Assembly (NCBI GenBank): GCA_038087875.1
Contig: CM075993.1
Location: 11,224,001 to 11,288,000 of the forward strand
Reading direction: 5' to 3'
DNA from: Malacoraja senta
Taxonomy: Eukaryota
Length of the DNA: 64,000 nt
A model generated the notes under the pieces. That model did not search any database. It was not told the DNA's origin and saw only the letters and a program-made list of their open reading frames with translations. Numbering within the stretch: the first letter of the stretch is position 1; each line of letters begins with the position of its first letter. Positions 2,312 to 58,629 of this stretch are shown here, piece by piece. The translations under genes were made by a program, and so were the position numbers.

Positions 2312-3780
2312 AGACAATAGACAATAGACAATAGGCGCAGGAGTAGGCCATTCGGCCCTTCGAGCCAGCACTGCCATTCAATGTGATCATGGCTGATTAT
2401 CCCCAATCAGTACCCCGTTCCTGCCTTCTCCCCATATCCCCTGACTCGGCTATCTTTAAGAGCTCTATCTAACTCTCTCTTGAAAGCATCCAGAGAACCA
2501 GCCTCCACCTCCCTCTGAGACAGAGAATTCCACAGACTCACCACTCTCTGTGTGAAAAAGTATTTCCTCATCTCCATTCTAAATGGCTTACCCCTTATTC
2601 TTAAACTGTGGCCCCGGGTTCTGGACATCGGCAACATGTTTCCTGCCTCTAGAGTGTCCAAACCCTTAATAATCTTTTATGTTTCAATAAGATCACCTCT
2701 CATCCTTCTAAACTCCAGAGTGTACATGCCCAGCTGCTCCATTCTCTCAGCATATGACAGTCCCGCCATCCCGGGAATTAACCTTGTAAACCTACGCTGC
2801 ACTCCCTCAATAGAAAGAATGTCCTTCCTCAAATTTGGAGACCAAAACTGCACACAATACTCCAGGTGTGGTCTCACTCGGGCCCTGTACAACTGCAGAA
2901 GGACCTCTTTGCTCCTATACTCAACTCCTCGTGTCATGAAGGCCAACATGCCATTCGCTTTCTTCACTGCCTGCTGTACCTGCATCCTTACTTTCAGTGA
3001 CTGATGAACAAGGACCCCCAGATCCCATTGTACTTCCCCTTTTCCCAATTTGACACCATTTAGATAATAATCTGCCTTCCTGTTTTTGCCACCAAAGTGG
3101 ATAACCTCACATTTATCCACATTAAACTGCATCTGCCATGCATCTGCACCCAACCTGTCCAAGTCACCCTGCATCTTCATAGCATCCTCCTCACAGTTCA
3201 CACTGCCACCCAGCTTTGTGTCATCTGCAAATTTGCTAATGTTACTTTTAACCCCTTCATCTAAATCATTAATATATATTGTAAATAGCTGTGGTCCCAG
3301 CACCGAGCCTTGCGGTTGCCCCACTAGTCACTGCCTGCCATTCTGAAGGGGACCCGTTAATCCCTACTCTTTGTTTCCTGTCTGCTAACCAATTTTCTAT
3401 CCATAATAATAATAATAATAATGGATTGGATTTATATAGCGCCTTTCTAATACCCAAGGCGCTTTACATCGCATTATTCATTCACTCCTCAGTCACACTC
3501 GGTGGTGGTGAGCTACTTCTGTAGCCACAGCTGCCCTGGGGAAGACTGACGGAAGCGTGGCTGCTAATCTGCGCCTACGGCCCCTCCGACCACCACCAAT
3601 CACTCACACGCATTCACACAGATTCACACGCAGGCAAAGGTGGGTGAAGTGTCTTGCCCAAGGACACAACGACAGTATGCACTCCAAGCGGGATTCGAAC
3701 CGGCTACCTTCCAGTTGCCAGCCGAACACTTAGCCCATTGCGCCATCTGTCGTCCTCGTCAGCACTCTACCCCCAATGTC
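2312..3780 (-). mobile_element. CR1-clade LINE (HER1-like) 3' part with RT domain, interrupted by a SINE
   Basis: ORFs 2677-3324 and 2407-2661 encode PQGSVLGPQLF...KFADDTKL...[11 protein letters not shown]; (TCTATTG)n tail; frameshifted. Confidence 0.92.
3404..3755 (-). mobile_element. tRNA-derived CORE-type SINE with L2-like tail, nested in CR1
   Basis: Minus strand: tRNA-like head with GGTTCGAATCC B box, CORE-like gtgtccttgggcaagacacttcacc, tail gtaaagcgccttgggtattagaaaggcgctatataaat + (ATT)n. Confidence 0.8.
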
Positions 3781-5925: not shown

Positions 5926-7635
5926 GCCATCTTCGGTATAAACCAGCAACAGCAGTTCGTTCCTACACATAATAAATACTGATCTCAATTAGATCGGGAT
6001 AAATAAGGGCCTGAACTCAGAAGTGTGTCAGGTATTATTTGAGAATTGCTAACACTGGGTTTCAGATCCGCACACATTCAAAATTGACAACTGTTGAATA
6101 ATTTGATTCAGCAATTCGGGATCTGAGGCAATGCTGCTGTTCTGAAACATTTCTGATTGAAGAGGCAAGAACAAGTAAGGCTTTGGAAGTTACAGGGGAT
6201 AAATATTTGAATCTTTCTGATCTGTGCCACTGAATGATATATCACACTGTGCATTCACCGCACTGGAGCCATTGAAAGGGCAGCATGAAACCCCCTGGAA
6301 ACACTACAAAATGTTGTCCATATTTTGTCCATTTCATTTCAAAATCCTAAATCCAGCCGTTGTTCTGCAAAGAGTTTTGTCAACGTTCAGCGTAGACACA
6401 AGGAACTGGGATCATTATTATTATCAAATTGGATGCATTAATTGATACTCAACGCCTCTGTAGAGATGCTGCCTCACAGCGGCAGAGACCCGTGTTTGAT
6501 CCTGACCTCGCGTGCTATCTGTGTGGAGTTTGTACGTTCTCCCTGTGACCCCGTGGGTTTCCTTCGGGTGCTCAGGTTTCCTCCCACATCCCAAAGACGT
6601 GCGGGTTTGTCGGTTAATTGTCGGTTTTCCACTGTGCAGGGGAGTGAATGAGAAAGTGGAATAATATGGAACTAGTGTGAATGGGTGATCGATGGTTAGC
6701 ATGGACTCGGTAGGCCGAAGGGCCTGTTTCAAGGGATATGAGGAGAAGGCAGGCACGGGTTATTGATTAGGGACGATCAGCCATGATCACAATGGTGCTG
6801 GCTCGAAGGGCCGAATGGCCTCCTCCTGCACCTAATTTCTATGTGTTTAAGAAGGAACTGCAGATGCTAGAAAATCGAAGGTAGAGAAAAGTGCTGTCTG
6901 AAGAAGGGTTTTGGCCCAAAACGGTGCCTATTTCCTTCGCTCCATAGATGCTGCTGCACCCGCTGAGTTTCTCCAGCACTTTTGTCTACCTATTTTCTAT
7001 GTTGCTATGTTTCAACGCTGTATCTATCAATGGATCAATCAATGTCTTCCTAAAATGACAAATTATCTACTTGGGTCCTATTGCCACGGCACAAAGGATT
7101 TTTTTAAAGAAGATGACATTGCAACTACAAGAGGCTGAAACAGCAGCCTAGTTTTGAAAGCCTATAGATTTATTTGGAGATATCACATGACACAGCATGG
7201 TGTCGGTTTGAATTTTAACACTTCAAGAGACCTGGACTTAACTCATTCAGTTCTCCTTATCCTGTAAGACAAATGGCTGACAAATCTTGACTGGTATGAC
7301 AAGTCCATTCAGTTTAGTTTAGTTTAGAGATACAGCGCGGAAACAGGCCCATCGGCCCACCGAGTCCACGCCAACCAGCGAACACCGCATATTAACACAC
7401 AAACATCCATCACAGTGAGGAGGTGTTTGGAGATTCACTGAGATGGATGTGTGTGTGGAATTGTGTTAATTGTGTGTTTGTTTGTTTTTTGCTGTTATTT
7501 TGACTGCAGGGAACGACATTTCATCCAAACCTTTGTTTGTTTGAATGACAATAAAGGTATTCTAATTCTAATTAACACTATCCTGCACATTGTAGGGACA
7601 ATTTACATTTATACCAAGTTAATTAACCTACAAAC

Positions 7636-8363: not shown

Positions 8364-10207
8364 CGAAACCTGTACGTCTTTGGATTGTGGGAGGAAACCA
8401 GAGATCCAGGAGAAAACACACGTGGTGCAGCCAGAAGGCAAGGAGAAGCCCCTTTAGACATTGGAACAGGGGCTGCGACCTCACACACCCCATGTACACG
8501 TGGACTGAATCCACGCTGAATACTCATCAATTACGCACACTATGATGCAATACTTCATAAGTTCATGTTATAGGAGCAGAATTAGGCCATTCGGCCCATC
8601 TGAACCTTCTGAACCTAAATGTTGTAGTCGGCAGGGCAGTACTCTGCATATCGCCAACTTGGACAATTTTACACTTTTTTTATCAAGCCAATTAACCTAC
8701 AAACCTGCACGTCTTTGGAGTGTGGGAGGGAGGAAACTGAAGTTCTCGGAGAAAACCCACGCAGATCATGGGGAGAACGTACAAACTCCATACAGACAGC
8801 ACCCGTAGTCGGGATCGAACCTGGGTCTCTGGCGCTGCATTTTGCTGTAAGGCAGCAACTCTACCGCTGTGCCACCGTGACTGCATCGTCCACTCTGCTG
8901 TTCAATCATAGCTGATCTATCTTCTTCTCTCAACCTCATTCTCCTGCCTTCTCCCCATAACCCCTGACACCCGCACTAATCAACAGTCCATCTATCTCTG
9001 CCTATAGAATCTATCTGTGTCTGTGGCAATGAATTCCACTGTGATCAGCTGCTCATCAACACCATATACAGCAAATCCACTGACATCACATGTTGAGTAT
9101 TTGGTGATACTAGTGTGTTGTGAATTCCCTGCTAATCCACACTGCACATCCTACTTTTAATGTCTTTTAATTTTTTGTGTGTTTTTTATAGTCCTTCGTT
9201 TTACGGTTTTTTAATGGTTTTTAATTGTTTGTAATAGCTTTTTGTTCGTGATTTCTCATGTACAGCACTTTGTGGCAACTGTGGTTGTTTAAAGTGCTTT
9301 ATAAATAAAGTTATTATTATTATTATTATTATTATATTACAAGTAAGTGACACTCGACGAGAGTAGGGAAATCGAGGAGCAGAGGACAGGTTCAAGGTGA
9401 AGGGGAAAAGATTTAATGGGAATCCGAGGGGTAACTTTTTCACACAAAGGGTGGTGGGTGTATGGAACCAGCTGCCAGATGAGGTAGTTGAGGCTGGGAC
9501 TATCCCAACGTTTGAGAAACAGTCAGACAGGATATGGACCAAGTGCAGGCAGGTGGGACTAGTGTAGATGGGACATGTTGGCCAGTGTGGGCAAGTTGGG
9601 CCAAAGGGCCTGTTTCCACACTGTATCACTCTATGACTATGACCCGACTGACTCCCGACTGACTCCGGAAAGAGAATTCTTACTTAAAATATCCGTTGCT
9701 TTGCTCATCCTTCGTGTAAAACTGAGCAAATAATACATTGTGAAACTGCCCTCTGAATCCTTGATAACAAGGTTACAAACCACAGTGGGAATCAACAAGT
9801 ACATTCACACAGTGTGTAGGAAGGAACTGCAGGTGCTGGTTTACATCGAAGATAGACACAAAATGCTGGAGTAACTCAGCGGGTCAGGCAGCATCTCTGG
9901 AGAGAAGGAATGGGTGACGTTTCGGGTCGAGACCCTTCTTCAGACTGTCAGGGGAGAGGGAGACTAGAGATGTGGATGGGTAAGGTGTGAAAACGACAGA
10001 TCAAAGCCGACGATGATACGGAAATGTTAGGATTCACTGCACTCATTCCTGGCTTAGACACAAAGTGCCTCAGCGGGCTATACCTTTCAATACCTCTAGT
10101 GACCTCTCCTCTGACTCTGAAGATGGGTCTTGGTCCAAAACGTCACCTATTTCTTTTCCCGCGTTCATAAGTTTTAGGAGCAGAATTCGGCCATTTAGCC
10201 CGTCAAG

Positions 10208-10520: not shown

Positions 10521-11469
10521 AGACTCAAAGAGGAAAAATCACATGGCAGATCTCAGGCTGGCCCAACGATGTACATAGGATGCACAGTAGCTGGTTGAAT
10601 AATGCAAACCAAACACAATTTGCAGAAAAGGCAGGAGGGATATGTACCTAAGTGCAGAATCGACGAACATTTAGCATAATTAACAGATTAGCAAGCCTTA
10701 CCTCGAGTGTAAATTAAGGTTGTTAATTAAAGCTCGCGTAGTCCATCACACACGCTAAGATCCTCCCAATGGTCGGATGTTAGGTCCAGCTCTGAAACTT
10801 CCTCTCATCACTCTGAATCCCTGTAGATATCTCCTGACTAGAACTGAAAACATTTGCACTTGTATAGGGGCGGTACGTAGGCGCAGGGATAGGGCAGCTG
10901 CCTCACAGCGCCAGAGACCCAGGATCGATTCTGACTTCCTGCACTGTCTGTTCAAAGGTGTCTAATGCAGTACACCTTTCATAATCATTGTCACACCTGC
11001 AGTTTCCACAGGAGATGGAGGAAGAAATGTATGCCCAATGGGTGGGGGAGCAGAGGAAAGAGGGGGGGGGAGCGGGCAGACCCAGGTTCGATTCTGACTA
11101 CGGGTGCTGTCTGTACGGAGTTTGCACGTTCTCCCTGTGAACGCTTTGGGTTTTCTCCTGGTACTCAGTTTCATCCCACACTCCAAGGACGTGCAGGTTT
11201 GTAGGTTGACACAAAATGCTGGCGTAACTCAGTGGGTCAGGCAGCATCTATGGAGAAAAGGAGTGGGGACATTTTGGGTCGAGACCATTCAGTCTGAAAA
11301 AGGGTCTCAACCCAAAACATCGCCTATTCCTTTTCTCCAGAGATGCTGCCTGACCCGCTGAGTTACTCCAGCATTTTGTGCCTTTCTTCAGTATAAACCA
11401 GCATCTGCAGTTCCTAACACAGGTTAAATGACTCCTGTGTGCCCCTACTGTATAGCGAGTGATGAGTAA

Positions 11470-12149
11470 AGGCCCTGTCCCACTTACGTGTCCTTGGCAT
11501 GCAAATTATGTGACCTCGTGGTTGCTTTGAGGCGCACGGGCATCGTGTGGCCGTGCGGGGCTGGTCCCATTTAGCACGGAGGGGTATGTAGTTGTGCGCG
11601 ACATCGCGCGGGGCTCCGAAATTTTTGTAGTGAACTAAATCTTCGCGCGCCTACGGCCTGTCACGGAACTGACGGCCAAAGTGGGACAGGCCCAACACCC
11701 TGGCACGACGCAACGTCTCACCTCCAACAGCAGCAGAGGCAGGCAAACGATCGCCGAGCTCGGCCTGGGGCTCACGGCCGTTGCGGATCCGGATCCTCCC
11801 CCACTTCTACTGCCAGAGCGGGGCCAAGAAAATTGAAGATGGACCCAAATTGCTGGAGTAACTCAGCGGGACCGGCAGCATCTCTGGAGAGAAGCAATGG
11901 GTGACGTTTAGGGTCAAGACCCTTCTTTTCAGACTGAAGGAGAGTCTCGACACAAAACGTCACCCATTGCTTCTCTCCAGAGATGCTGCCTGTCCTGCTG
12001 AGTTACTCCAGCTTTGTGTCCATCTTCAAAATGACATCACGCGCTCCAGACGGCTGTGCGGACGCATGAAATCGTGCCCGACCTTCGCGGGGACCGTTTA
12101 CGAGGTCGCGTAATTTGCGTGCCAAGGACACATAAGTGGGACAGGTCCT
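11470..12149. mobile_element. PIF/Harbinger-like MITE with nested Penelope-derived inverted dimer
   Basis: ~50-bp imperfect TIRs AGGCCCTGTCCCACTTACGTGTCC.../...GGACACATAAGTGGGACAGGTCCT; TAA TSD at 11467-11469 and 12150-12152. Confidence 0.85.
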
Positions 12150-13106: not shown

Positions 13107-13820
13107 TCATGGAGTGATACAGTGTGGAAACAGGCCCTTCAGCCCAACTTGCCCACACCGGCCAACATGTCCCAGCTTGCGCTTGGCCCATATCCCTCCA
13201 AACCTGTCCTATCCATGTATCTGTCTAACTGTTTCTTAAACGTTGCGATAGTCCCAGCCTCAACTTCCTCCTCTGGCATTTAAGAAGGAACTGCAGATGC
13301 TGGAAAATCAAAGGTAGACATAAGGGCTGAGAAACTCAGCCGGTGCAGCAGCATCTATGGAGCGAAGGAAATAGGCAACGTTTCGGGCCGAAACGTTGCC
13401 TATTTCCTTCGCTCCATAGATGCTGCTGCACCCGCTGAGTTTCTCCAGCACTTTTGTCTACCTACGTCCTCTGGCAGCTTGTTCCATACACCCACCACTC
13501 TTGTGTGAAAAGGTTACCCCTCGGATTCCTATTGAATCTTTTCCCCTTCACCTTGAACCAAGTCCTCTGGTCCTCGATTCCTCTACTCTGGGCAAGAGAC
13601 TCTGTGCATCTACCCGATCTATTCCTCTCATGATTTTATCCACCGCTATAAGATCACCCCTCATCCTCCTGCGCTCCATGGAATAGAGTCCCAGCCTACT
13701 CAACTCTCCCTGTAGCTCACACCCTCTAGTCCTGGCAACATCCTCGTAAATCTTCTCTGAACCCTTTCAAGCTTGACAACATCTTTCCTATAACATGGTG
13801 CCCAGAACTAAACACAATAG
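13107..13820 (-). mobile_element. CR1-clade LINE 3' fragment (second subfamily) interrupted by a Penelope-derived palindrome
   Basis: CR1 C-terminal coding remnant and 3' UTR; insertion at 13279-13466 flanked by tcctctggca direct repeats. Confidence 0.8.
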
Positions 13821-16100: not shown

Positions 16101-16896
16101 GCTCCCTGAGCTTGGTGCCACGAGCTTATATTGCCGCGGTATAATTTATGGAAATTAATTTAGATTTTGTTCTGACAGTGACGTTGAGTATATTTGGGAA
16201 GATGAACTGTTGGCAGGAGTCGGGCGAAGACTCTGCAACTGTGTGAGATCACCTCACTGCATCAGGACCGGTTTTACACGCTCCTACTTAGCTGGGTGAC
16301 ACTGACTGATGTGGTGCCTTGTAAATATTGTAGCAGGATTATATTATACTTCATAGCAATCATTCTAACAAATCATTTCATCAAACAGTGGTGTGAACCA
16401 TCTATCCTGTTTAGTTAAACAGATATATATCAATATATTTCAATGCAATCTGGGCAGTTCTGTAATAAAGCAGCGTTTACCTATTGGAAACAAAAACAGC
16501 TCCTTGCACCATTCACATGAAGTGTGAAAACGCACATCTCCAGATTCAGGGATAGTTTCTTCCCAGTTTTTAATAGACACAAAATGCTGGAGTAACTCAG
16601 CGAGACAGGCAACATCTCTGCATAGAAGGAATGGGTGACCTTTTGGGTCAAGACCCTTCTTCAGACTGTAACGTCACCCATTCCTTCTCTCCAGAGATGC
16701 TGCCTGTCCTACTGAGTTACTCCAGCATTTTGTGTCTGGCTTCAGTGTAAACCAGCATCTGCAGTTCCTTCCTACACAGTTTCTTCCCAGCTGTTATCAG
16801 GCAACTGATTCACCCTACCACAACCAGAGAGCAGTGCTGAACTACTATCTACCTCATTGGTGACCCTTGGACTATCCTTGATCAGACTTCGCTGGC

Positions 16897-17414
16897 TTCC
16901 TCCAACCTCATCTATTGCATCCGCTGCTCTAGATGCCAGCTGATCTACATCGGTGAGACCAAGCGGAGGCTTGGCGATCGTTTCGCCGAACACCTCCGGT
17001 CGGTCCGCAATAACCAACCTGCCCTCCCGGTGGCTCAGCACTTCAACCCCCCCTCCCATTCCGTATCTGACCTCTCTGCCCTGGGACTCCTCCATGGCCA
17101 CAGCGAGCAACACCGGAAATTGGAGGAAATGCACCTCATATTCCGCTTGGGCAGTCTGCATCCTGGGGGCTTGAACATTGAATTCTCCCAATTCTGCTAG
17201 CCCTTGCTGTCCCCTCCCCTTCATCATCCATCTGGTTGTCTCCTCCCCTCCCCTAGCCCTCGGGCTCCTCCTCTGCCTTTTTTCCTTTTTTCCTTTCTTC
17301 TCCCCACCCCCTATCAGTCGGAAGAAGGGTTTCGGCCCGAAACGTTGCCTATTTCCTTCGCTCCATAGATGCTGCTGCACCCGCTGAGTTTCTCCAGCAT
17401 TTTTGTGTACCTTC
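16897..17414 (+). mobile_element. Penelope-like element 3' part: GIY-YIG endonuclease and terminal repeat
   Basis: SNLIYCIRCSRCQLIYIGETKRRLGDRFAEH...VAQHFN...LEEMHLIFRLGSLHPGGLNIEF, followed by the repeat carrying a hammerhead-like core at ~17319-17346. Confidence 0.9.
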
Positions 17415-17913: not shown

Positions 17914-18218
17914 AGGTTGTGGTGCAAAGCTGCTTATACAGGCTACAAACGCGGCCTTCGAAACCAAAGAGAGCATATACAGATCTAGTGAAGATTGCCG
18001 CAATGAGACTGTCTTTACCTGGGCAAGAGATTTGCCCACGTCTACAAGGGAAAGACCAACACTGTTACTCCTGGTGGTAAACCAAATAAAACCTGCGTCA
18101 TTTGGGGTAAAGTGACTCGTTCTCATGGAACAGTTGCATGGTGGTGCCAAGTAGTAACCTGCCTGCGAAGGCTATTGGGCATAGGACTCCTGTGATGCTG
18201 CACCCATCAAGAATTTAA
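17914..18218 (+). pseudogene. RPL35A: Processed pseudogene of 60S ribosomal protein L35a
   Basis: Intronless translation across frameshifts gives RLWCKAAYTGYKRGLRNQREH...[38 protein letters not shown]...[20 protein letters not shown], matching the remembered RPL35A sequence; no ATG, several indels, A-rich tract at ~18261-18280. Confidence 0.93.
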
Positions 18219-27997: not shown

Positions 27998-30584
27998 AAA
28001 CTGGAGCACCCGGAGTAAAACTACGTAGGTTACGGGGAGAACGTACAAACTCCGTACAGACAGCATCTCTGGAGAACGTGGCTTGGTGATGTTTTGGGTT
28101 GGGAGCATTTGATCAGACTATATATTTCATTACCAGAGGACTTGCCCTCTATGTCCATCTGAAGAAGCTGTAAGAGTATGAGATGCCTTGAGGAGATTGT
28201 GAATGTGAGTGGTCTCCAGAGCAGACTGCACTATGAATGTGGGAGGATTTAGTTGAGATACACAGTATGGAAATTGGTCCTACATCCCACCGAGTCCATG
28301 CCGACCTGAAGAAGGGTCTCGACCCGAAACGTCACCCATTGCTTCTCTCCAGAGATGCTGCCTGAGTTACTCCAGCAATTGTGTCTATTTCCGACCATTG
28401 ACGACCCCGTTCACAGTAGTTCTGTGTTATTCCACTTTCTCATCCACTCCCAACACACGAGGGAACAGTTTACAGGGTTTAATTAACCCACAAACCCGCA
28501 CGTCTTTGGTATGTTGGAGGAAACCGGAGCACCGAAGGGGGAAGGCATGCAGTCACAGGGAGAACATGCAAACTCCACACAGACAGCACCCGAGATCAGG
28601 ATCGAACTTGGGTCTCTGGCGCTGTGAGACATAGATAGAACATAGCACAGTACAGTCTTATCAACACATGTTGACTGCAGAGGCTCGCTGGCACAGCTGG
28701 TAGAGCTGCTGTCTCACAGCGCCAGAGACCCACGTTCGATCCTGATCTCGGGTGCTGTCTGTGTGGAGTTTGCATGTTCTCTGGCGCCAGCGCGACTCTG
28801 CAGTCAACATGCGTTGATAAGACTGTACTGTACTGTGCTATGTTCTATGTATGTTCTATGTTTAGGGATTCTTAGTGTAGTTTGTCATACGTGCTTTAAC
28901 ACAGCTAATGGATAAGAAGGAACTGCAGATGCTGGTTTACACCGAAGATAGACACAAATAGCGGGAGTAACTCAGCGGGACAGGCAGCATCTCTGGAGAG
29001 AAGGAATGAGGCTCTTCTTCAGACTGGGAATCAGGGAGAGGGAGTCTAGAGATATGGAAGGGTAAGGTGGGTGTCCTGTTAGGCCAATAGTTGGCTCGGG
29101 AAGCTATGACCTCAAGAGGGCTACGCGATAGCCTCAAGAATAATGGTGTTGGCCATTTAGGACTGAGATGAGGAAAAACGTTTTTCTCCCAGAGAGTTGT
29201 GAATCTGTGGAATTCTCCGCCACAGAAGACAGTGGAGGCCAATTCACTGGATGTTTTCAAGGGAGAGTTAGATATTTACCCACCAGGGGCACCGTGTGAT
29301 TGGCAGCACCGCCAACAGTCTGTCTGTTTTTTCGCCTTATTTTGTTATTTTTAATGCGTTTAAAAAGTTTGTGTAAATGTTCTGCAGTTTGTTCTATGTG
29401 GGGGGAGGGGAGAAGGTCGGGAGAAACTTTATTTCAATCTCAACTTGCCGGAGATGCAATTGGTTTTCAGGTCGTCTCTGCGGCGTAACATCATGGAGCT
29501 GGAGGCCTCCTCGGACTAACTTTGAGCCCCTCCGCAGGGCGTGGACTTACATCGGAGCCCATTCCTTGCCTGGGATCGCTCCTGCGGATTTCACAACGAG
29601 ATCTCGTAGACTCAGGAGAGGCTGAGTTGGGAGCTCCAACGACACAGAAGGTTCGACCCCAGCCCTGACCCGGGGCCCGATCACTCTGCGTGGGGTAGCT
29701 GACATGCAGGAGCTTGATCGCCCCGATGCGGAGGGCCCAAACGCAGCCGGATACGGGAGCCAAGATCGTCCCGTCAACGGCGGGCTCGAGGCCTCCGACC
29801 GTGGGAGAGCAAAGAAGGGAAGTGATGTGCCTTCCATCACAGAGAGGAATGTGGAGGAGTCACTGTGGTGGATGTTTATGTTAAAATGTGTTTTGGATTT
29901 TGTTGCTTTTTATTTGTATGACTGACTTGGCAAATGAAATTCCTCGTATGTTGCAAAACATACTTGGCTAATAAAGTATTATCGTATTGTTTATAGCTCT
30001 TAGGGCTAATGGAATCAAGGGATATGGGGGAAAAGCAGGAACGGGGTACTGATTTTGGATGATCAGCCATGATCATATTGAATGGCGGTGCTGGCTCAGG
30101 GCCGAATGGCCTACTCCTGCACCTATTGTCTATGTTTCAATGTTTCTCTGATGAACTGTAGAACTGGATAAACGACTAGGGTGGAGGAATGGGCAAGGGG
30201 GGAGGGGACAGAGTTTTCGCAGAAGTTATTTAAAATTAGAGAGTTCAACATTCATATTGCTGGGTTGTGAGGTGCTGTTTCTCCAATGGTCCCTGGATAC
30301 ACCGACTGTGTGTTAGCAGGGAGCGTTTTGACGAGTCTGTGGAATTCTCTGCCTCAGAGGGCGGTGGAGGCCGGTTCTCTGGATGCTTTCAAGAGAGAGC
30401 TAGATAGGGCTCTTAAAAATAGCGGAGTCAGGGGGATATGGGGAGAAGGCAGGAACGGGGTACTGATTGGGGATGATCAGCCATGATCACTTTGAATGGC
30501 GGTGCTGGCTCGAAGGGATAATGGCCTACTCCTGCACCTATTGTCTATTGTCTATTGACTCCGTGACTAACTCTTGACTGCAGC

Positions 30585-30897: not shown

Positions 30898-33656
30898 TCA
30901 GTTATTTGGATGCTGATCGAAGGAGGTGCTTCATCCGTGTGAATGAGTGTCATCGAGGTACGTTAATACTGAAGGTCGAGTGTCAATGACTGGGGATTCC
31001 TTTCATCTGCAGGGTATTGACACGGTGAATGTGAGCTGTCAGTGGGCGTTTTGAGTCTGTCGACGTGGTCTATTGTGACACTGAGGTTGTTTAGTCACCA
31101 TGAGTGTTTGACCCTGTGGATATGTGATGACAGTGGGGTGTTTTGATGTGAAAATGCGTGTTGAGCCACTGTCAGAGTACATTAATGGGGAACGCCTTGA
31201 CTGTGACACAGTGTGTTGTCAGGGCCTCCGAAACTGTGAACGCATCTTGTCAGGGGGGATGCAAGCAGAAGCCTCCACGTGGCGCATCCCGGGCAATGCT
31301 GACGACAGAAACTGTACCACAGTGACTGACTGAAGTAGCCAATTCTGCAACCAACCGTCACTGACCGACCGGAAAGACGTGATATGGAAGATGGCCGGAC
31401 ACGAGGAAGAAGATCTTGTCAGGGGAGGTTCCCATGTGTGACTGTGCGCAGTCAGGAACGTGTGTTGGAAAATTAGCTTTCTCTTTAGAGATGCAGTGTG
31501 GAAACAGGCCCTTCGGCCCACCTAGTCCACGCCGACCAGCGAACACCAACACCATCCTACACACTAGGGATGATTTACAATTTTTCCAGAAACCAATTCA
31601 TCTACACACCTGAAGATAGACACAACGTTCTGCAGTAACTTAGCGGGCCGGGCAACATCTCTGGAGAAAAAGGATGGGTGATGTTTTGGATCAGAACCCT
31701 TCTTCACACTATTACTTCAATCTGAAGAAGGGTTCCAACACAAAACATCACCCATTCTTTTTCTGCAGAGATGCTACCTGACCCTCTGAGTTGCTCCAGC
31801 ACTTTGTGTCTATCTTTGGTATAAACCAGCATCTGCAGTTTCTTTCTGCACAAAACTTACAGACTTGTACATATTTGGAGTGTGGGAGGAAACCGGAGCA
31901 CCCGGAGGAAACCCACGCAGGTCACGGGGAGAACGTACAAACACCATACAGACAGCACCCGGAGTCAGGATTGAACCTGGGTCTGTGGTGCCGTGAGGCA
32001 GCAACTCTACCGCTGCACTACTGTGGCGCCCAGTGTTGGTTTGAAGCTGGGACTCTGAGATATTTACTGACAAGTGGTGTCAGTCACGAGATACTTTGTC
32101 ACTGTGAATATGCAGTGATTTGATACTGAGGTTGTACATTGTCAGAGATAGTTTTGAACACAAAGTTAAATTGTCATGCAGTGTTGTGACATAGTGACTG
32201 TGTGTGACAGGGCATCCCTCGCCATTGACTCCATTTACACCTCACGCTGCCTCGGCAAGGCCAGCAGCATAATCAAGGACCAGTCGCACCCTGGCCACTC
32301 CCTCTTCCCCCCTCTCCCATCAGGCAAAATGTACAGAGGTGTGAAAACGCAGACCTCCAGATTCAGGGACAGTTTCTTCCCAGCTGTTATCAGGCAACTG
32401 AATCATCCTACCACAACCAGAGAGCAGTCCTGAACTACTATCTGTTCAAGAAGGAACTGCAGATGCTGGAAAATCGAAGGTAGACAAAAATGCTGGAGAA
32501 ACTCAGCGGGTGCGGCAGCATCTATGGAGCGAAGGAAATAGGTGACGTTTTCAGGCCGAAACCCTTCTTCAGACTATTCTGTTGATTCCCCCACTGCCAC
32601 CACCACAACACCACTCACGCAGTTCCCCTCTTTACCCTCCAGAATCTGCAGCCTTTTGATCTCCACATTATTCCACTCTCCCTATCTCTGCCCTAACCAC
32701 TCCTGAACCAGGGGCCACAGTTTAAGAATAAGGGGTAAGCCATTTAGAACGGAGACGAGGAAACACCTTTTCTCACAGAGAGTGGTGAGTCTGTGGAATT
32801 CTCTGCCTCAGAGGGCGGTGGAGGCAGGTTCTCTGGATGCTTTCAAGAGAGAGCTGGATAGGGCTCTTAAAAATAGCGGAGTCAGGGGATATGGGGAGAA
32901 GGCAGGAACGGGGTACTGATTGGGGATGATCAGCCATGATCACATTGAATGGCGGTGTTGGCTCGAAGGGCCGAATGGCCTACTCCTGCACCTAATGTCT
33001 ATTGTCTATTGTCTATTGTCTATTGTCTATTGTCTATTGAAGAAGGGTCTCGATCCGAAACGTCACCCAGTCCTTCTCTCCAGAGATGCTGCCTGTCCCA
33101 TTGGGTTACTCCAGCATTTTGTGTCTTTCTTTGGTTTAAACCGGCATCTGCAGTTCCTTCCAACAACATTTCCCAGCCTTTGTGCTCTCCGCCTCTTTAG
33201 ACAAAGCCCAGAATTACATATGCCTCATTAGCCTGTTTTTCAACCTTCTATGCCACGTTCAATAACTTGGTAAATCAACCATCTGTTCTGCCCGGTTTGA
33301 TGACTACTGCAGATGCTAGTTTCTATCAAAGATCAACATAAAGTGCAGTGTAATTCAATGCGCCAGGCAGTATCTCGGGCAGTAAAAGGATGGGTGATAT
33401 TTTGGAGGAGGTGTCCCAACCCAAAATGTTTATTTTAGTTTAGTTTAGTTTGGAGATACAGCGCGGAATCAGGCATTTCGATCCACCGGAATCCATGCCG
33501 ACCAGCGATCCCCGTACACGAACGCTATTCCTACACACTAGCGGCAATTTACAATTTTTACCGAATCCAATTAACCCACAAAACCCACATGTCTTAGGAT
33601 TGTCTAAGAATGAACAAAGACAGTTAGAAGAACTTATTAGACAAATGGATATAGAT

Positions 33657-33856
33657 NNNNNNNNNNNNNNNNNNNNNNNNNNNNNNNNNNNNNNNNNNNN
33701 NNNNNNNNNNNNNNNNNNNNNNNNNNNNNNNNNNNNNNNNNNNNNNNNNNNNNNNNNNNNNNNNNNNNNNNNNNNNNNNNNNNNNNNNNNNNNNNNNNNN
33801 NNNNNNNNNNNNNNNNNNNNNNNNNNNNNNNNNNNNNNNNNNNNNNNNNNNNNNNN
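33657..33856. other. Assembly gap (200 N)
   Basis: Run of N; the round size suggests a placeholder scaffold gap. Confidence 1.
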
Positions 33857-34697: not shown

Positions 34698-34755
34698 TAT
34701 GTGTGACAATTTAACACTATGACTTACGCATGATCTCTCTCTGTTTTTTCAACAG

Positions 34756-34885
34756 CATGTCCCAGTTTACGTGCTGCCAAAGTTGGAGTATCAACCCATG
34801 TATGGGATAGAAGCCCTCACTGAGAGTGAAATCTGTCAGTTATGGACTGAAAGTCTCATCAATTCAAATTCCTGGTTTTATATCG
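34756..34885 (+). CDS. Candidate internal coding exon A of an unidentified host gene (HVPVYVLPKLEYQPMYGIEALTESEICQLWTESLINSNSWFYI)
   Basis: Strong acceptor tctctctctgttttttcaacag and donor G|GTGAGT; 130 nt of non-repeat sequence; only one of three frames is open; ends in phase 1. Confidence 0.75.
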
Positions 34886-35112
34886 GTGAGTCCCATTTGC
34901 ATTAACTCATATAAAATTCTTAAAGGATTGGACAGGCTAGATGCAGGAAAGATGTTCCTGATGTTGGAGGAGTCCAGAACCAGTGGTTTGTGTAGGTAGA
35001 TATAAACAGCTGGAGTAACTCAACGGGTCAGACAGCATCTCTGGAGAAAAAGGAATAAGTGTTTCGGCAAAATGCTTTTCGATTCATTGTGGTTGCAAAC
35101 GAGGTAGGGCAA

Positions 35113-43586: not shown

Positions 43587-44299
43587 AAACTAAGCCAAGA
43601 CGAGTTTGGACAGATCTGTGAAAAGAACAAACAATATGCTGGAGAGTGAGAGTGAGAGCCTGCTGATGCCGCTGTATGGCGGCGAGACAGGTCTGAGGAA
43701 GGTCTGAGGAAGGGTCTCGACCCGAAACGTCACGTATTCTTCTCCAGAGATGCTGCCTGACCCGCTGAGTTACTCCAGCATTTTGTGCCTATCTTGAGTA
43801 TAAACCAGCATCTGCAGTTCCTTCCTACACAAACAAGTTAATATTTTGGGCAAAGACCCTTCACCAGTTCTGGGAGAATGAGAAAATAAGTTGCAGGAAG
43901 AATGGGGAAGAGATGACTGGGACCAAAGAAATATCTCTGATAGGGTTGGGCCAGGGTTGCCACGGTGATCCTGGTGTTTACTGAGCCACCTGGTTACCAG
44001 ATTAGATGTTTTGTTTTTAATCTTGGGGATGAAGCGTGGGACATTCAATCATGGCTGATCTATCTCTCCCTCCTAACTCCATTCTCCTGCCTTCTCCCCA
44101 CAACCCCTGACACCCGTACTAATCAAGAATCTATCTATAGACACAGAAAGCTGGAGTAACTCAGCGGGACAGGCAGCATCTCTGGAGAGAAGGAATGGGT
44201 GACGTTTCGGGTTGAGACCCTTCTTCAGACTCGACCCGCAACGTCACCCATTCCTTCTCGCCAGAGATGCTGCCTGTCCCGCTGAGTTACTCCAGCTTT

Positions 44300-45055
44300 T
44301 TAAGAAGGAACTGCAGATGCTAGAAAATCGAAGGTAGACAAAAGTGCTGGAGAAACTCAGCGGGTGCAGCAGCATCTATGGAGCGAAGGAAATAGGCAAC
44401 GTTTCAGGCCGAAACCCTTCTTCAGACTGATGTAGGGTGGGGGGGGGGGGGGCAGAAGAAAGGAAAAAGGAAGAGGAGGAGCCCGAGGGCTGAGGGAGAG
44501 CTGAGAAGGGGAGGAGACTGCAAGGGCTAACGGAAATTGGAGAATTCAATGTTTATGCCGCTAGGGTGCAGACTGCCCAAGCGGAATATGAGGTGCTGCT
44601 CCTCCAATTTCCAGTGGTGCTCACTCTGGCCATGGAGGAGGCCCATGACAGAGAGGTCGGATTCGGAATGGTAGGGGGAGTTGAAGTGCTGAGCCACCGG
44701 GCGATTAGGTTGGTTAATGCGGACCAAGTGAAGGTGTTCGGCGAAACGATCGCCAAGCCTACGCTTGGTCTCACCGATGTAGATCAGCTGACATCTAGAG
44801 CAGCAGATGCAACAGATGAGGTTGGAGGAGATGCAGGTGAACCTCTGTCGCTCCTGGAACGACAGCTTGGGTCCTTGAATGGAGTCGAGGGGGGAGGTAA
44901 AGCGACAAGTGTAGCATCTCTTGCGGTTGCAAGGGAAAGTGCCCAGGGAGGGGGTGGTACGGGAGGGAAGGGACAAATTGACCAGGGAGTTACGGAGGGA
45001 GCGGTCTTTGCGGAAAGCAGACAGGGGGGGAGATGGGAAGATGGTGGTATCACGT
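44300..45055 (-). mobile_element. Penelope-like element 3' part (Cys-rich linker, GIY-YIG, terminal repeat)
   Basis: ORF 44527-44976: PCNRKRCYTC...LICCICCSRCQLIYIGETKRRLGDRFAEH...GINIEF. Confidence 0.92.
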
Positions 45056-45566
45056 TGGATGGTAGTTACTCCAGCTTTTTGTGTCTTTCTTCGGATTAAA
45101 CCAGCATCTGCAGCTCCTTCCTACACAAGAATCTATGTATCTGCCGTAAAAAACATCCAATGACAATGACAAAAACATCCGGCCTCCACAGCCGTCTGTG
45201 GCAAAGAATTCCACAGATTCACCCCCTCAGACTGAAGAAATTCCTCCTCATCTTCCTAAAGGAACGTCCTTTAATACTGAGGCTTGCTTTCCCCACAATG
45301 CTCATGCAAAGTACTCATTTAGTACCTCCCCTACATCCTCAGAGAGAGAAAAAAAGTCTGCAAAAAAAATAAATGCCTTTGTGCAAAGCGCAATTAAAAG
45401 GACAGATCCATGGCAGTGATCATAGTGATACAGCATGGGAGCAGGCCGCGCGACCCAACTAGCCCACACCGGCCAACATGTCCCAGCTATTCCAGTCCCA
45501 CCTGCCCGCGTTTGGTCCATATCCCTCCAAACCTGTCTTATCCATGTACCTGTCTGACTCTTTCTT

Positions 45567-47320: not shown

Positions 47321-49794
47321 CCAATGATGCACTGGTGATCATTAATATTTGTCTCGGCTGTGAGTGTATGACAATCAAAGCGACCCACACTTCACCTTGT
47401 GCGAGTTCAGACATGCATCTTGTCGACGTCTGCCAGGTGTGTCTAGGCTACAGGTACTGGCATGAATTCTGTAAAGAACAGCTTCAGGCCTCTAAACCGT
47501 GGATGCAGCTCCTGGGAATCATGTCAAGAATGGGCTCATTTTGTTTGCTGCCAACCATTAAGTGTTTTATTAGACAGTTTTCTCTCAGCTCATTTGTCTG
47601 AAAATATACACCCTTGAATGAACAGTCAAGACAAGGAAAGACAAAGTGCTGGAATAGCTCAGCGGGTCAGGCAGCATCTCTGGAGAACATGGATAGGTGA
47701 CGTTTCAGTTTGGGATCCTTCTTCTGATTTTTTTAAATATTGAAACCAGTATCTGCAGTTCCTTGTTTCTACAGCCAAGCCAATGGATGGATAATCTAGA
47801 TTTCTCACACACTCCTACTTACTTACCGCCAGTTCCTTCAAATTTGTCTCATCTGCTTTGTCCACACTCAAATCCTTCATTCTAGTCGGGCAGTGGGAAG
47901 ACTTCAGAAATATGCAACATCGGAACTTGGCATCTTTAGTTGTTTAGTTTAGAGATACAGCGCGGAAACAGGCCCTTCGGCCCACCGAGTGCATGCCGAC
48001 CAGCGATCCCTGCACACTAACACTATCCGACACACACTAGGGCCAATTTACATGTATACCAAGCCAATTAACCTACAAACCTGTACGTCTTTGGAATGTG
48101 TGAGGAAACCACAGCTCCCGGAGAAACCCCCCCACAGGTGACGGGGAGAAGGTGTAAACTTCATACAGACTGCACCCGTAGTCAGGATCGAACCTGGGTC
48201 TCTGGCACCTTACGGCAGCAACTCTGTGCCACCATGCCGCCCTGTATAGCACAAAATATTTTCTAACGAGCTTGGAGCAAAAGTGCTTTAAGGAGTAACT
48301 GTCAGTGATGGGTAATGGACAAAGAAGGATTGAGGTAGGAAGGTTTAGTGGGCAGGGCAGGGTCACGGACATTGGGAGGGAAAATAATAATATTGATGCT
48401 ACTCTCTGTATTCCGATGGAAGGTCATCGACCTGATAGGTTAACTCAGTTTCTCTGTACAGACAGTGGTGCAACAGCACCAGAGATCCGGGTTCAATCCT
48501 GACTAGGGTGCTGTCTATACAGAGTTTGTACATTCTCCCTGTGACCGTGTGGGTTTTCCCCTGGTGCTCCGCTTTCTTCCCACACTCCAAAGGCATAGAG
48601 GTTTGAGGCTGGACCCTCTGCAGTGACCAATGTTACATGGCGACAACCTACGACCGGAGTAGAGGGGCAACGTCAAGCCCACATTTCAAAACCCAGCGGC
48701 GACAAGAAATAAGTAACGGCACTTGAGGAGACCGCTCCCGACAATACACGCGTCACGTCGCCACTATTTTTCAGCTGTCACCGAAGTGGGACAGGCCCTT
48801 AAAGAAGCCGCCTGACTTGCTGAGTACTTTAGCATTTCCTGGTACAGTTCAGATATTAGCTCTGCTGCAAGCGTTTGAGATCATTAATATGATTATGACC
48901 AGGATGTTCTTTTCCTGTATTCATTATCATGCACATTTAATATACATTTAACTACAATGCAACCACAATGTGACTTTACAAAAGCTAATATGGGAATCAG
49001 GAAAAAACTTTGAACAGTGCAGGACACTAATAAATTGATGATGAGTATTATATGGAAATATGTTAATGTTACAATGGCAGGTGGGAGGAGATGTGTGGAT
49101 GACACACACAGTATGCCTAAGGATATTGACAATTTTGTAGAAACAAGGAACTGCGGATGCTGATTTACACGAAAGGACACAAAGTGCTGGGGTAACTCAG
49201 CGGGTCAGGCAGCATCTCTGGAGAAAAGGAATAGGTGACGTTTCGGGTCAAGACCATTCATCAGAATGAAGAAGTAACATACTCAGGCAACAAGTGTAGG
49301 AAGGAACTGCAGATACTGGTTTACACCGAAGATAGACACAAATTGCTGGAGTAACTCAGCAGGTCAGTCAGCATCTGTGAAGAAAAAGGTGACATTTTGC
49401 TTCAGACTGAAGAAGGGTCCTGACCCGAAACGTCAACTATTCCTTTTCTCCAAAGGTGCTCCTTGAGTTACTGCAGCATTTTTTTATCCTTTTGAAAATG
49501 TTGTGTTAATTTAAAGGATGGAAGCAAGGAACAATGCTATATCATATAAAGTCCTTAACGGTTCAAGGAAGATCTTTGACTTTGCAACTGAGATTGGGCT
49601 GAAATGTTGAACCAAGACTTCACGGGAAACAGGGATTACTAAGTGTAATTTTGGGTATTGCCTGCACCAAGATAGCTTATTGTGCTCAGTAAAAACTATA
49701 TCTAAATGTTACTGCTGTGGTAATACTGCCCATTAAAGCATTGCCTTCTCATTGAGATATACATCAACCATTGCTCAAAGGTGGGTGTTATGGG

Positions 49795-50385: not shown

Positions 50386-51316
50386 TTAATCCTCTATGTG
50401 AGTCAGCATTTCTTGTGCTCAAGAAGAGTGCAGCGTTGAGTTCATTGCCATTATATGAGTTGTTGAGTTGTTGCTTGTGAATTCATGTTGTACACAAAAT
50501 TATTATACTAATTTCTCGTGTAACGGTGCCTGCACGACAAAGTCCCCTGACTGCTTAAATATAATACTTTGGGGTTTCCTGAGATTCTGAAATTTGCTCC
50601 TGAAATTCTATTGCTGGATTGTCTATTGCTTATTCAGTTTAAGCAGCCATTTACTGTTGAGCAGAAATAGAAATGGTTCATGTTGAAGAGCCTGAAGAAG
50701 CGTCCCGACCCAGAACGTCACCCATTCCTTCTCTCCAGAGATGCTGCCTGTCCCGCTGAGTTACTCTGGCTTTTTGTGTCTACCTTCGGTTTAAACCAGC
50801 ATCTGTAGTTCCTTCCTGCACATCACCTGCCCATATTCTCCTGAGTTGCTGTCTGACCCACTAAACTATTCCAGCACTTTGTGTCTTTTTTTGTAATCCA
50901 GCATCTGCAGTTCCTTGTTTCTACATCTTGTTTACTTTCGTTCAGAGATACAGCGCCGAAACAGGCCCTTCGGCCCACCAGCGATCCCCGTACACTAGCA
51001 CTATCCTACACACCAGGGACAATTAACAATCTTTACCAAGGCCAATTAACCTACAAACCTGCACGACTTTGGAAAGTGGGAGGAAGCCAGTGCACCCGGA
51101 GAAAACCCACCCAGTCATCACGAGGAGAACGTTCAAACTGTACAGACAGCACCTGTAGTCAGGATCAAACCCGGGTGTCTGGTGCTGTGAGGCAGCAACT
51201 CTACCGCTGCGCCACCATGCATCTTTTTAAGTTCATGTTTGTTCATTTCTGCCTTTGATAATGGCCTGTATTATTATTGATATTGTTCCAATATATCCAT
51301 CCTTGCTATATTACAG

Positions 51317-53364: not shown

Positions 53365-53695
53365 ATATATAAAAGGACTGGACAAGCTAGATGCAGGAAA
53401 AATGTTCCCAATGTTGGGCGAGTCCAGAACCAGGGGCCACAGTCTTAGAATAAAGGGGAGGTCATTTAAGACTGAGGTGAGAAAAAACGTTTTCACCCAG
53501 AGAGTTGTGAATTTATGGAATTCCCTGCCACAGAGGGCAGTGGAGGCCAAGTCACTGGATGGATTTAAGAGAGAGTTAGATAGAGCTCTAGGGGCTAGTG
53601 GAGTCAAGGGATATGGGGAGAAGGCAGGCACGGGTTATTGATAGGGGACGATCAGCCATGATCACAATGAATGGTGGTACTGGCTCGAAGGGCTG
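53365..53695 (+). mobile_element. CR1-clade LINE 3' end
   Basis: ORF 53402-53641. Confidence 0.88.
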
Positions 53696-54313
53696 CGAGT
53701 GGGGGGAGCAGTGTTGCAGGGTATGGAAGAGACCCTGGTGCGAGCCTCATCTATGGTGGAGGAGGGGAACCCCCGTTCCCTGAAGAATGAGGACATTTCA
53801 GATGCCCTGGTGTGGAACGCCTCATCCTGGGAGCAGATGCGGCGTAGACGGAGGAATTGGGAGTGGGGGATGGAGTCCTTACAGGAAGCAGGGAGGGAAG
53901 AAGTGTAGTCCAGATAGCCATGGGAGTCAGTAGGTTTATAATGAATGTCAGTCAGAAGTCTATCACCTGCGATGGAGATAGTGAGGTCAAGGAATGGTTG
54001 GGAAGTGTCGGAAATGGTCCAGGTGTATTTGAGTGCCGGATGGAAGTTGGTGGTGAAGTGGATGAAGTCAGTCAGTTGTGTGTGGGTGCAGGAGGTGGCA
54101 CCAAAGCAGTCATCGATGCAGCGGAGGTAGAGGTCGGGGATGGGGCCCTGGTACGCCTCGAACAAGGATTGTTCGACGTACCCGACAAAGAGGCAGGCGT
54201 AGCTGGGGCCCATGCGTGTGCCCATAGCTACGCCTTGTATTTGGAGGAAATGGGAGGAGTCAAACGAGAAGTTATTGAGGGTGAGGACCAACTCCGCTAG
54301 GCGGAGGAGAGTA
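53696..54313 (-). mobile_element. Penelope-like reverse transcriptase fragment
   Basis: NNFSF...QIQGVAMGTRMGPSYACLFVG...LRCIDD (YIDD altered)...PFLDL...HYKPTDSH...SQFLRLRRICS. Confidence 0.92.
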
Positions 54314-54959
54314 TCAGTGGCCGGGTATAGGTTGCTTCTCAGAAGAGGTAGTTGTGGCTGGGACTATCCCAACGTTTAAGAAACAGTTAGACAGGTGCAT
54401 GGATAGGACAGGTTTGGAGGGATATGGACCAAGCGCAGGCAGGTGGGACCAGTGGCGATGGGACATGTTGGCCGGTGTGGGCAAGTTGGGCTGAAGGGCC
54501 TGTTTCACTCTATGACTTTAAGGCCATTCGTGCCATCATGTTCATGCCAGATCCCAAAGGAGCAATTCAATCAGTGCCATTGCCTCTCTCCTTACAGCTC
54601 TGTTGTCTAGCTGCTAGTTCTATCTCACCCCTGACCATCAGCTAGCTTCCCTTTGATTCCCTTTACCACTAACTTTATTTGTGTTCAGTTTAGTTTATTG
54701 TCACGTGTACCGAGGTTCAGTGAAAAACTTTTGTTGAGTACCAACCAGTCAGCAGAATGACAATACATGATTACAATCGAGTCATTCACGATCTACAGAT
54801 ACATGATGAATGGAATAACGTTTAGTGCAAGATAAATTAATTTACGTCGGGGATGAACTAAAGTGGCTAATTAACCTGCCAGCACGTCTCGTGGATGTGT
54901 GAGGAGACTGGGGCACCCTGGCATACAGTGTAGTTTAGTTTTGCATGCTATCGCAAACA

Positions 54960-57210: not shown

Positions 57211-58629
57211 CCAGCATTTGGTGGAGGGCACACGCACAATATTGCCCTTCTATCACGATTTCTTTCAGTCCTGCAAGACAGCAAGCAGATTGGAAAAGAT
57301 GATGGCAAAGCAAGGCTTCAGACCAATTTATGTAGCGGCACAGTGGAGCTGTTGCCTCAATGATTCACAAACCCGGGTTCAATCCTGACCTCAGGTGCTG
57401 TCAGTGCGGAGTTTGCACGTGCTCCCTGTGACGGCATGGGTTCCTTCCGGGTGTTCCGGTTTCCTCCCACATCCCAAAGAAGTGTGAGTTTGTAGGTCAA
57501 TGGACCCCTCGAAAATTGCCCCTAGTGTGTAGGGCGTGGATGTGAAAGTGGGATAACATAGAACTAGTGTGTATGAAGGAACTGCAGATGCTGGTTTAAA
57601 CTGAAGATAGACACATAAAGCTGGAGTAACCCGTGGGTCAGGCAGCATCACTGGAGTAATAGAATAGGTGACGTTTTGGGTTGAAAAGAAGCATCTCGAG
57701 TCGACCCAAAACATCCACTATTCCTTTTCTCCAGAGATGCTGAGTTACTCCAGTTTTTGGTGTCTATTTTCTAGAACTACTGTGAATGGGTGATTGATAG
57801 TCGGCATGGACTCGGTGGCCAAAGGGCTTGTTTCCACCCTGTATCTTTCAATTCAATTCAGTTGAATATGTCAGTAAGATAGAGAACCCATTTGGGCTCC
57901 TGTAAAGGATTGTTTAAGGACAGCCAGCAATCTTCCCCACTTCATGCTAAGAGTAGACCAGGTTTAGATCAGTGGAGTCACTTTGTGAATGGTGAAACAT
58001 TGGCATTGACATAAGTCAACACAAATGTTCATATACATGTGTAGGACGGAACTGCAGATGCTGTTTAACACCGAAGGTAGACACAAAAAGCTGGAGTAAC
58101 TCAGCAGGACAGGCAGAATATCTGGAGAGATGAAGGGTGACGTTTCAGGTCGAGGGTCAGGGGAGAGGGAAACAAGAGATATAGGCGGCACATGGATCAA
58201 ATGAATGAAAGACATGCAAAAAAAGCATTACTGAAGAAGGATCTCGACCTAAAAAGGTCACCCATTCCTTCTATCCGGAAGTGGCGGCACTGTTTAACAG
58301 CTGCGGCTCGCCTGCAGTCCGCCTGTCTTTACTTTTTTCTGTTGGTTTTTTTGTCTTGTTTTGGTTAAGTTTTAGTTTGTTGGGTTGTGTTAGGGGGGGT
58401 GAAACATGTTCTCTGTCTCTTCCTTCGGGGGAATGCGACTTTTTCGTGTCGTATCCCCCTTCTCTGCCTCCGTCTGCGCTGAGGCCTAATGGCGGAGCTG
58501 GCGGCCTCCAACCTGCGACCGACCCCGAGGCTACAGAGGCAGAGCCAGCCAGGACTTACCAACGAGAGGCTGGCCGTCTTCGGGGCTGAGGCAGCGGTGG
58601 CCCGACTTGCTGGTGCGGCGTTCTGGCTT

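What the first reader, a model, noticed from the sequence alone, without database searches (positions are those of the whole stretch)
13279..13466. TSD-flanked inverted-dimer (foldback) mini-elements that fold back at the ribozyme core
Seen: a near-perfect palindrome of ~75-bp arms centred on aacgtttcgg-g-ccgaaacgtt, within stem II of the hammerhead-like motif, flanked by tcctctggca (13269-13278, 13467-13476). The same design recurs with its own direct repeats: 6845-6988 (ccta(a/t)tttctatgt), 16567-16777 (agtttcttcccag, 13 bp) and 57572-57771 (tagaacta(g/c)tgtg). Further inverted pairs lie at ~11207, 11845, 21455, 31615, 44140, 49296 and 56257. Junctions differ between copies but cluster at or next to the core. 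Established: Penelope insertions often show inverted terminal segments. Inference: these 150-210 bp units are single insertions formed by fold-back or template switching near a ribozyme-defined RNA end, and each would make a long dsRNA hairpin in the pre-mRNA.
Basis: partly seen in the sequence, partly recalled or inferred. Interest (0 to 1): 0.7.

Follow-up and report, generated by a model that had tools for sequence, protein, structure and literature searches.

The report
Tiny back-to-back Penelope retrotransposon insertions
This hairpin in a skate gene's intron is a very short, back-to-back double copy of the end of a common jumping gene; the design is known, and the copies join upstream of the ribozyme's cut site rather than at it.

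Summary
13279-13463 is a head-to-head pair of Penelope-like (PLE) end fragments. The arms match at 72 of 76 columns, a 33-nt tail sits on one side only, and the target duplication is 15 bp (empty paralogous site at 9473-9487). The window (a skate, inside ICE2 introns) holds 69 such fragments and 12 close head-to-head pairs; 5 of 12 have clear duplications. Breakpoints do cluster, but not at the predicted hammerhead cut: 17 of 24 arm ends lie 26-35 nt upstream of it and none within 5 nt. Unpaired copies stop at the same place (17 of 29), as do many contigs in two read sets. So the boundary belongs to the family, and the template was uncut or re-ligated. The focal junction is a 7-nt microhomology in the stem II palindrome. 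Four pairs have non-nested arms, which simple fold-back cannot make; priming from both nicks fits better. Inverted truncated copies, one-sided tails and palindromic junctions are all published PLE features. New member of a known kind, useful as a large natural test set for PLE integration.

The parts
13264..13278 (+). left copy of the 15-bp target-site duplication
   Evidence: single in the empty paralog 9473-9487
13279..13311 (-). PLE tail (about +67 to +99 from the predicted cut), present on this arm only
13312..13387 (-). left arm, subfamily A end fragment, reaching at least position -11 (to -18 if the shared 7 nt are counted)
13380..13394 (.). junction: native stem II palindrome; 13388-13394 fits either arm (7-nt microhomology)
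   Evidence: the same junction in 65 contigs of run X3
13388..13463 (+). right arm, -10 to +66, tail-less; predicted cut 13397/13398; no CUGANGA, so no intact ribozyme
13462..13476 (+). right copy of the duplication (first 2 nt shared with the element end)
9473..9487 (-). empty paralogous site in another copy of the host LINE
   Evidence: flanks 91% identical
6845..6991 (.). subfamily A pair with non-nested arms (+49..+99 and -30..+66), 15-bp duplication
16567..16777 (.). subfamily B pair, non-nested (-33..+64 and -6..+103), 15-bp duplication
57572..57771 (.). subfamily B pair, non-nested (-15..+102 and about -26..+68), 13-15-bp duplication
44137..45126 (.). subfamily B pair, non-nested, 15-bp duplication; right arm interrupted by the nested copy below
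44299..45063 (-). longer subfamily A copy: C-x4-C-x2-C linker, GIY-YIG-type endonuclease end, 3' UTR, hammerhead-like motif, tail; 15-17-bp duplication
53665..54363 (-). PLE reverse transcriptase fragment, not joined to an end fragment in this window
11205..11421 (.). pair joined at the TCAG-T-CTGA palindrome; no clear duplication
11831..12030 (.). pair joined at the same palindrome, both arms tail-less; no clear duplication
49295..49482 (.). pair joined at the same palindrome; no clear duplication
31610..31851 (.). pair with a 7-nt spacer; duplication inconclusive
34750..34887 (+). ICE2 (NARG2) exon; further exons 51316-51399 and 59429-59473; places the pairs in introns

Best explanation
These are ordinary Penelope-like retrotransposon insertions cut down to their last 50-135 nt and inserted as a head-to-head pair in one event. 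Shown: identity with PLE ends, 15-bp duplications in 5 of 12 pairs, two preferred outer ends (about +66 and +100) shared with unpaired copies, a preferred inner boundary at about -30, and templates that span the predicted cut. Inferred mechanism: the endonuclease nicks both strands 15 bp apart, and both 3' ends prime reverse transcription on uncut (or re-ligated) element RNA, often one at the tail end and one at the inner start site. Each cDNA runs through the hammerhead region and usually stops at about -30, most likely the 5' end of the RNA (an initiator-like TCAGT sits there). The two cDNA ends are then joined, often through the short palindromes of the hammerhead (TCAG-T-CTGA, stem II). 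The ribozyme contributes palindromes and position, not a cut end. The resulting hairpin is a passive by-product in an ICE2 intron. My odds: PLE single-event origin 0.95; no cut-defined end 0.9; two-primer joining as the main route 0.6; -30 being the RNA start 0.45.
For: End fragment directly follows an endonuclease ORF at 44299-45063; that ORF hits 104 of 120 fetched PLE-type RT proteins. Duplications against empty paralogs. Arm 5' ends 17 of 24 and unpaired 5' ends 17 of 29 in -35..-26, none and one within 5 nt of the cut. Loose ends at -30 in 137 contigs of X1 and 228 of X3, at +65..+68 in 124-302 contigs per row in all four runs, and the focal -18 junction in 65 contigs of X3. Outer ends of arms and unpaired copies fall in the same two groups. 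4 of 12 pairs are non-nested, and in all four the tail arm is the one that stops early. PMC11167929 (parts 1-2 of 4 read): a purified PLE protein nicks and extends both strands, starts at two internal sites that define the tail, is modelled as a dimer, and uses unprocessed RNA.
Against: 8 of 12 pairs, including the focal one, are nested and fit fold-back equally well. Later lopsided deletion at a hairpin centre could also make non-nested arms, and 4 of 4 in one direction is weak. One tail per pair (8 of 12) is not above independence (p 0.17). 7 of 12 pairs and most unpaired copies show no clear duplication. Arms overlapping by 70-80 nt need strand displacement or two RNAs, which is not shown. 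No transcript start was measured; the initiator consensus is recalled and short. Alignments may stop near -32 for copies whose UTR variant I lacked.
Confidence: 0.6

Rival explanations
1. Fold-back or self-priming: one cDNA (or an antisense RNA, as proposed for rotifer PLEs) folds on a palindrome at its 3' end and copies itself back, and the tail is left on one side when the intermediate is resolved.
For: The focal junction is a perfect snap-back in the stem II palindrome and recurs in 65 contigs of X3. 4 of 12 junctions sit in native palindromes. 8 of 12 pairs are nested. PMC3846280 (passages read) describes palindromes at inverted junctions and proposes self-priming on an antisense template.
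Against: 4 non-nested pairs; 6845 has arms that share only about 17 nt. The tail-less arm ends where independently primed unpaired copies end. 8 of 12 junctions are not in a palindrome.
Confidence: 0.27
2. One reading: the hammerhead cuts the RNA and the cut end is where reverse transcription stops and turns round.
For: Junctions lie within about 35 nt of the predicted cut in 11 of 12 pairs; the core is intact in 15 of 46 core-spanning copies. Cleavage followed by circularisation (proposed in PMC4209133) would leave no trace and is not excluded.
Against: No arm ends within 5 nt of the cut; both arms cross it in 11 of 12 pairs. Stem I is at most 2 bp. PMC11167929: ribozyme mutants insert normally and no reads begin or end at the cut.
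Confidence: 0.05
3. Independent insertions next to each other, or later rearrangement, with the family preferring its own sequence as target.
For: One nested insertion into an older pair exists (44299-45063). The family covers 10% of the window. 7 of 12 pairs lack a clear duplication, and three pairs have own-arm ranks of 7-9 among 12.
Against: One duplication encloses both arms in 5 pairs, four with empty paralogs. Arms are concordant. Close pairs are joined 5' end to 5' end.
Confidence: 0.08

Closest known systems
Endonuclease-containing Penelope-like elements with inverted 5'-truncated copies (PMC8557442, passages; PMC3846280, passages; PMC2377424, passages)
   Same: 5' truncation, adjacent inverted truncated copy, head-to-head orientation, 30-40-nt tail on one end, palindromes at the inverted junction, target duplication, hammerhead motif near the 3' end.
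   Different: Here both copies are reduced to about 50-135 nt with no ORF between them; the duplication is 15 bp where the rotifer examples seen are 8-10 bp; 5' ends pile up at the 5' edge of the hammerhead.
Poseidon of Anolis (PAc) in vitro (PMC11167929, parts 1-2 of 4)
   Same: Two start sites separated by the tail, both strands extended, uncut RNA used.
   Different: Other clade (this one has the C-x4-C-x2-C linker); the parts I read do not address inverted pairs or their junctions.
Minimal hammerheads of metazoan PLEs (PMC4209133, parts 1-2 of 4)
   Same: Core boxes, extra base before stem II, G-C at the base of stem II, palindromic ACGU in place of stem III; opposite-strand pairs of motifs were already noted in Schistosoma.
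   Different: Stem I is 2 bp, as in the D. virilis variant, not 4-5 bp; the focal unit has lost half of the core.
L1 twin priming (recalled, not from a call)
   Same: Both nicks prime, giving an inverted 5' part joined by microhomology inside one duplication.
   Different: L1 arms are adjacent, barely overlapping RNA segments; here they usually overlap by 70-100 nt, except 6845.
Non-LTR retrozymes (bioRxiv 10.64898/2026.07.22.740005, part 1 of 5 and passages)
   Same: Short non-coding hammerhead repeats related to PLE pseudo-LTRs, reported in one chondrichthyan.
   Different: Retrozymes are head-to-tail arrays with whole ribozymes; these are head-to-head pairs or single fragments.

Membership tests
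EN+ Penelope-like elements | End fragment linked to a PLE RT / GIY-YIG ORF | tested here: met
   Subfamily A end follows the ORF 44530-45063, which hits 104 of 120 RT-homolog proteins, some with precomputed PF01541. A direct Pfam scan of the two window fragments found nothing at E 0.01. No ORF-linked subfamily B copy was seen.
EN+ Penelope-like elements | 5' truncation with an adjacent inverted truncated copy | tested here: met
   12 close head-to-head pairs among 69 fragments
EN+ Penelope-like elements | 30-40-nt tail, often at one end only | tested here: met
   33-nt tail on the focal left arm; one tail in 8 of 12 pairs, both in 1, none in 3
EN+ Penelope-like elements | Target-site duplication | tested here: met
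   5 of 12 pairs, 4 with empty paralogs
Neptune/Nematis clades | CX2-5CxxC linker between RT and endonuclease | tested here: met
   C-x4-C-x2-C in the translation; feature from PMC8557442
Neptune/Nematis clades | Placement in an RT tree with named clade members | not tested
   no tree built; no named references fetched
Minimal type I hammerhead | CUGANGA, GAAA, NUH and stem II | tested here: met
   15 of 46 core-spanning copies intact; not in the focal unit, which lacks CUGANGA
Minimal type I hammerhead | Stem I of 4-5 bp | tested here: not met
   0-2 bp in all 15; no Rfam hammerhead hit at E 1 in the window or E 10 in one copy
Minimal type I hammerhead | Self-cleavage | not testable with these tools
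   needs an in vitro assay
Non-LTR retrozymes | Head-to-tail tandem units each with a whole hammerhead | tested here: not met
   no array of that period among 30 tandem rows; pairs are head-to-head
MITE (DNA transposon derivative) | Constant termini and length across copies | tested here: not met
   junctions and outer ends differ per copy and the arms are retroelement ends

The most novel reading that the evidence does not exclude
Skate genomes hold a very large in vivo record of two-primer integration by a Penelope-like enzyme: both nicks, 15 bp apart, prime on uncut leader RNA that starts at the 5' edge of the hammerhead, and the cDNA ends are joined at the hammerhead's palindromes. This would explain with one mechanism the inverted repeats, the one-sided tail and the excess of mini copies. 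A bolder extension, about 0.1, is that two RNAs paired through the palindromic ACGU of the dimeric hammerhead serve as the two templates.
Probability: 0.35. Interest if true: 0.62.

Novelty: new member of a known kind. Interest (0 to 1): 0.36.

Why it matters
How Penelope-like elements make inverted repeats and one-sided tails is still open, with self-priming, endonuclease resolution and both-strand priming all proposed. Short pairs with a fixed 15-bp duplication and mappable junctions, about 12 in this 64 kb alone, allow these models to be counted against each other by computation. They also add many intronic hairpins to skate pre-mRNAs, though no function is shown. The architecture itself is not new.

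Tried and rejected
No whole genome was held, so no genome-wide census. An exact-pattern scan of metagenome contigs gave 0 loci. Capture of host exons through the splice-acceptor-like CAG at -30: distant duplications in 6 of 35 unpaired copies against 10 of 60 random, so no support. Short inverted stubs before unpaired copies: 3 hits, against 19 of 300 random. tRNA origin of the antisense strand: no Rfam or ARAGORN hit there. Rfam microRNA hits on the hairpin are far below gathering scores and reflect the stem only. In one search the subfamily A coordinate was offset and the script failed; both were redone. Earlier scan findings: none by sequence or words. Seven paper searches ran; no listing showed a paper on these mini pairs in skates, but most subscription papers and Repbase/Dfam were not searchable, and no supplements were read, where such consensus families may be listed.

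Full report
Observation. The arms 13312-13386 and 13388-13463 match at 72 of 76 columns, and the unit folds at -133.6 kcal/mol, z -19. The left side carries 33 extra bases, 13279-13311, with no partner. The 10-bp repeat extends to 15 bp with two differences. The unit sits in a LINE copy, and another copy of that LINE at 9473-9487 has the 15 bases once, so they were duplicated on insertion.

Setting. Three exons of ICE2 (little elongation complex subunit 2) lie on the plus strand at 34750-34887, 51316-51399 and 59429-59473, 96-100% identical to the Amblyraja radiata protein. No hit to residues 1-713 was found in the window, so the focal unit is most likely in the intron before residue 714; this is inferred. 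The host is a skate or close relative. 61% of the window is self-repeated and the family studied here covers 6,440 bases, 10%.

What the arms are. A profile of 16 window copies finds 69 fragments. At 44299-45063 the same sequence is the 3' end of a longer element, after an ORF and a pyrimidine-rich UTR. That ORF hits 104 of the 120 proteins fetched with the RT fragment at 53665-54363; their named top hits are from sharks and rays, and some carry precomputed GIY-YIG domains. Pfam itself gave no hit on the two fragments. The C-x4-C-x2-C linker points to the Neptune/Nematis type (PMC8557442, passages); I built no tree. The end holds a minimal hammerhead-like motif, intact in 15 of 46 core-spanning copies, with stem I of at most 2 bp. 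Positions below count from the predicted cut (-1 is H17, C3 is -28).

Single events. Five of 12 close head-to-head pairs have a duplication scoring 10 or more, against 11 of 397 random intervals. Four have empty paralogs, each giving 15 bp when the 2-4 bases shared with the element end are counted. The pair at 44137 continues at 45064-45126, split by the longer copy, which has its own 15-17-bp duplication. Seven pairs have no clear duplication. A left arm's own partner is its nearest right arm in 6 of 11 testable pairs; permutation p is 0.0008 overall and 0.036 within the eight subfamily B pairs. Gene conversion between arms could add to this.

Breakpoints. I aligned all 69 fragments to five window references, dropped those scoring under 60, and corrected by hand rows that were mis-assigned: 9948 was given a placeholder upstream value, 50821 its profile start, 45064 was counted as an arm end. 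Of 24 arm 5' ends, 17 fall in -35..-26 and none within 5 nt of the cut; the nearest is -6. Both arms cross the cut in 11 of 12 pairs. Of 36 unpaired fragments, 7 run into the UTR and 29 end within 60 nt of the cut; 17 of those 29 fall in -35..-26 and one, poorly aligned, at -4. Arms and unpaired copies do not differ (Fisher p 0.40). Some alignments may stop near -32 for want of the right UTR variant, and a few unpaired copies may be pairs with a stub arm. Independent support comes from contigs of four public runs laid on the subfamily A copy: long unrelated loose ends at 44427 (-30) in 137 contigs of X1 and 228 of X3, at 44330-44333 (+68 to +65) in all four runs, and at 44415 (-18) in 65 contigs of X3 continuing exactly as the focal junction does. 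Only 24 of 2,253 rows were shown, none at the cut; X1 may be the source of the window.

The focal junction. The left arm reads through the native stem II palindrome to -11, and the next 7 bases fit either arm. Three other pairs join at the TCAG-T-CTGA palindrome at -33..-25. The focal unit has no CUGANGA on either arm, so it cannot be a ribozyme.

Mechanism. A template cut by the ribozyme would start at +1; these copies contain sequence upstream of it, so the template was uncut or re-ligated. This agrees with PMC11167929 (parts 1-2 of 4), where ribozyme mutants insert normally, both target strands are extended, and two internal start sites define the tail. Here outer ends fall in two groups, about +54..+77 and +90..+103, in arms and unpaired copies alike. 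Eight pairs have one tail, one has two, three none; that is not above independence (p 0.17). Fold-back needs one arm inside the other, and four pairs break this (6845, 16567, 44137, 57572), each with the tail arm stopping early. I therefore favour priming from both nicks and joining of the two cDNA ends (0.6) over fold-back (0.27); both may operate, and the focal copy alone cannot tell them apart. The cause of the -30 boundary is open. TCAGTCT at -33..-27 fits the initiator consensus (recalled), and Penelope has an internal TATA-less promoter (PMC2377424, passages). The same bases look like a splice acceptor, and the D. virilis intron ends at the 5' end of helix I (PMC4209133, parts 1-2 of 4). 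They are also a palindrome and the edge of a pyrimidine tract. A search for captured exons found nothing.

Known or new. PMC8557442 describes the adjacent inverted truncated copy and the tail at one end. PMC3846280 (passages) describes head-to-head junctions with palindromes, 8-10-bp duplications and a self-priming model. PMC4209133 notes opposite-strand pairs of minimal hammerheads. The design is therefore known. What I did not see in the listings of seven searches is the 15-bp duplication, the shared -30 boundary and the non-nested arms in a skate family; repeat databases and supplements were not seen. Verdict: new member of a known kind, interest 0.36, mainly because it makes the integration models countable.

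Noticed in passing
window 34750-34887, 51316-51399, 59429-59473 (+): Three ICE2 (NARG2) coding exons; the window is almost all intron of this gene.
   Followed up: yes
window 44285-45080: A subfamily A copy inserted into the right arm of an older subfamily B pair, with a perfect 15-17-bp duplication.
   Followed up: yes
window 9872-9934 (+) and other subfamily B copies: The antisense strand has polymerase III A-box-like and B-box-like motifs 52 nt apart, one mismatch each (5 of 20,000 shuffles, post hoc). Not kept in subfamily A, the B box is the complement of stem II, and no tRNA hit was found; probably chance.
   Followed up: partly
window 28560-28837: Two interleaved inverted repeats (72 nt at 99%, 52 nt at 90%) in a different, SINE-like repeat; looks like a local template-switch inversion.
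   Followed up: no
window 9814-10158 and 58039-58329: Wider head-to-head pairs that include UTR between the arms; right arms decay early and no duplication was found. Not counted among the 12.
   Followed up: partly
window 16899-17410 (+): Longer non-inverted subfamily A copy ending at the inner site, with a 12-bp duplication supported by empty paralogs.
   Followed up: yes
window 18007-18192 (+): Fragment matching ribosomal protein L35Ae (E 6e-8), probably a retrocopy remnant.
   Followed up: no
window 3679-3753 (-): ARAGORN calls a tRNA-Ala-like gene; likely a SINE head.
   Followed up: no
window 44430-44534: Contigs in all four runs join the ORF end to the hammerhead with unknown letters between, suggesting subfamilies with other 3' UTRs.
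   Followed up: no
window 33657-33856: A 200-base assembly gap.
   Followed up: no
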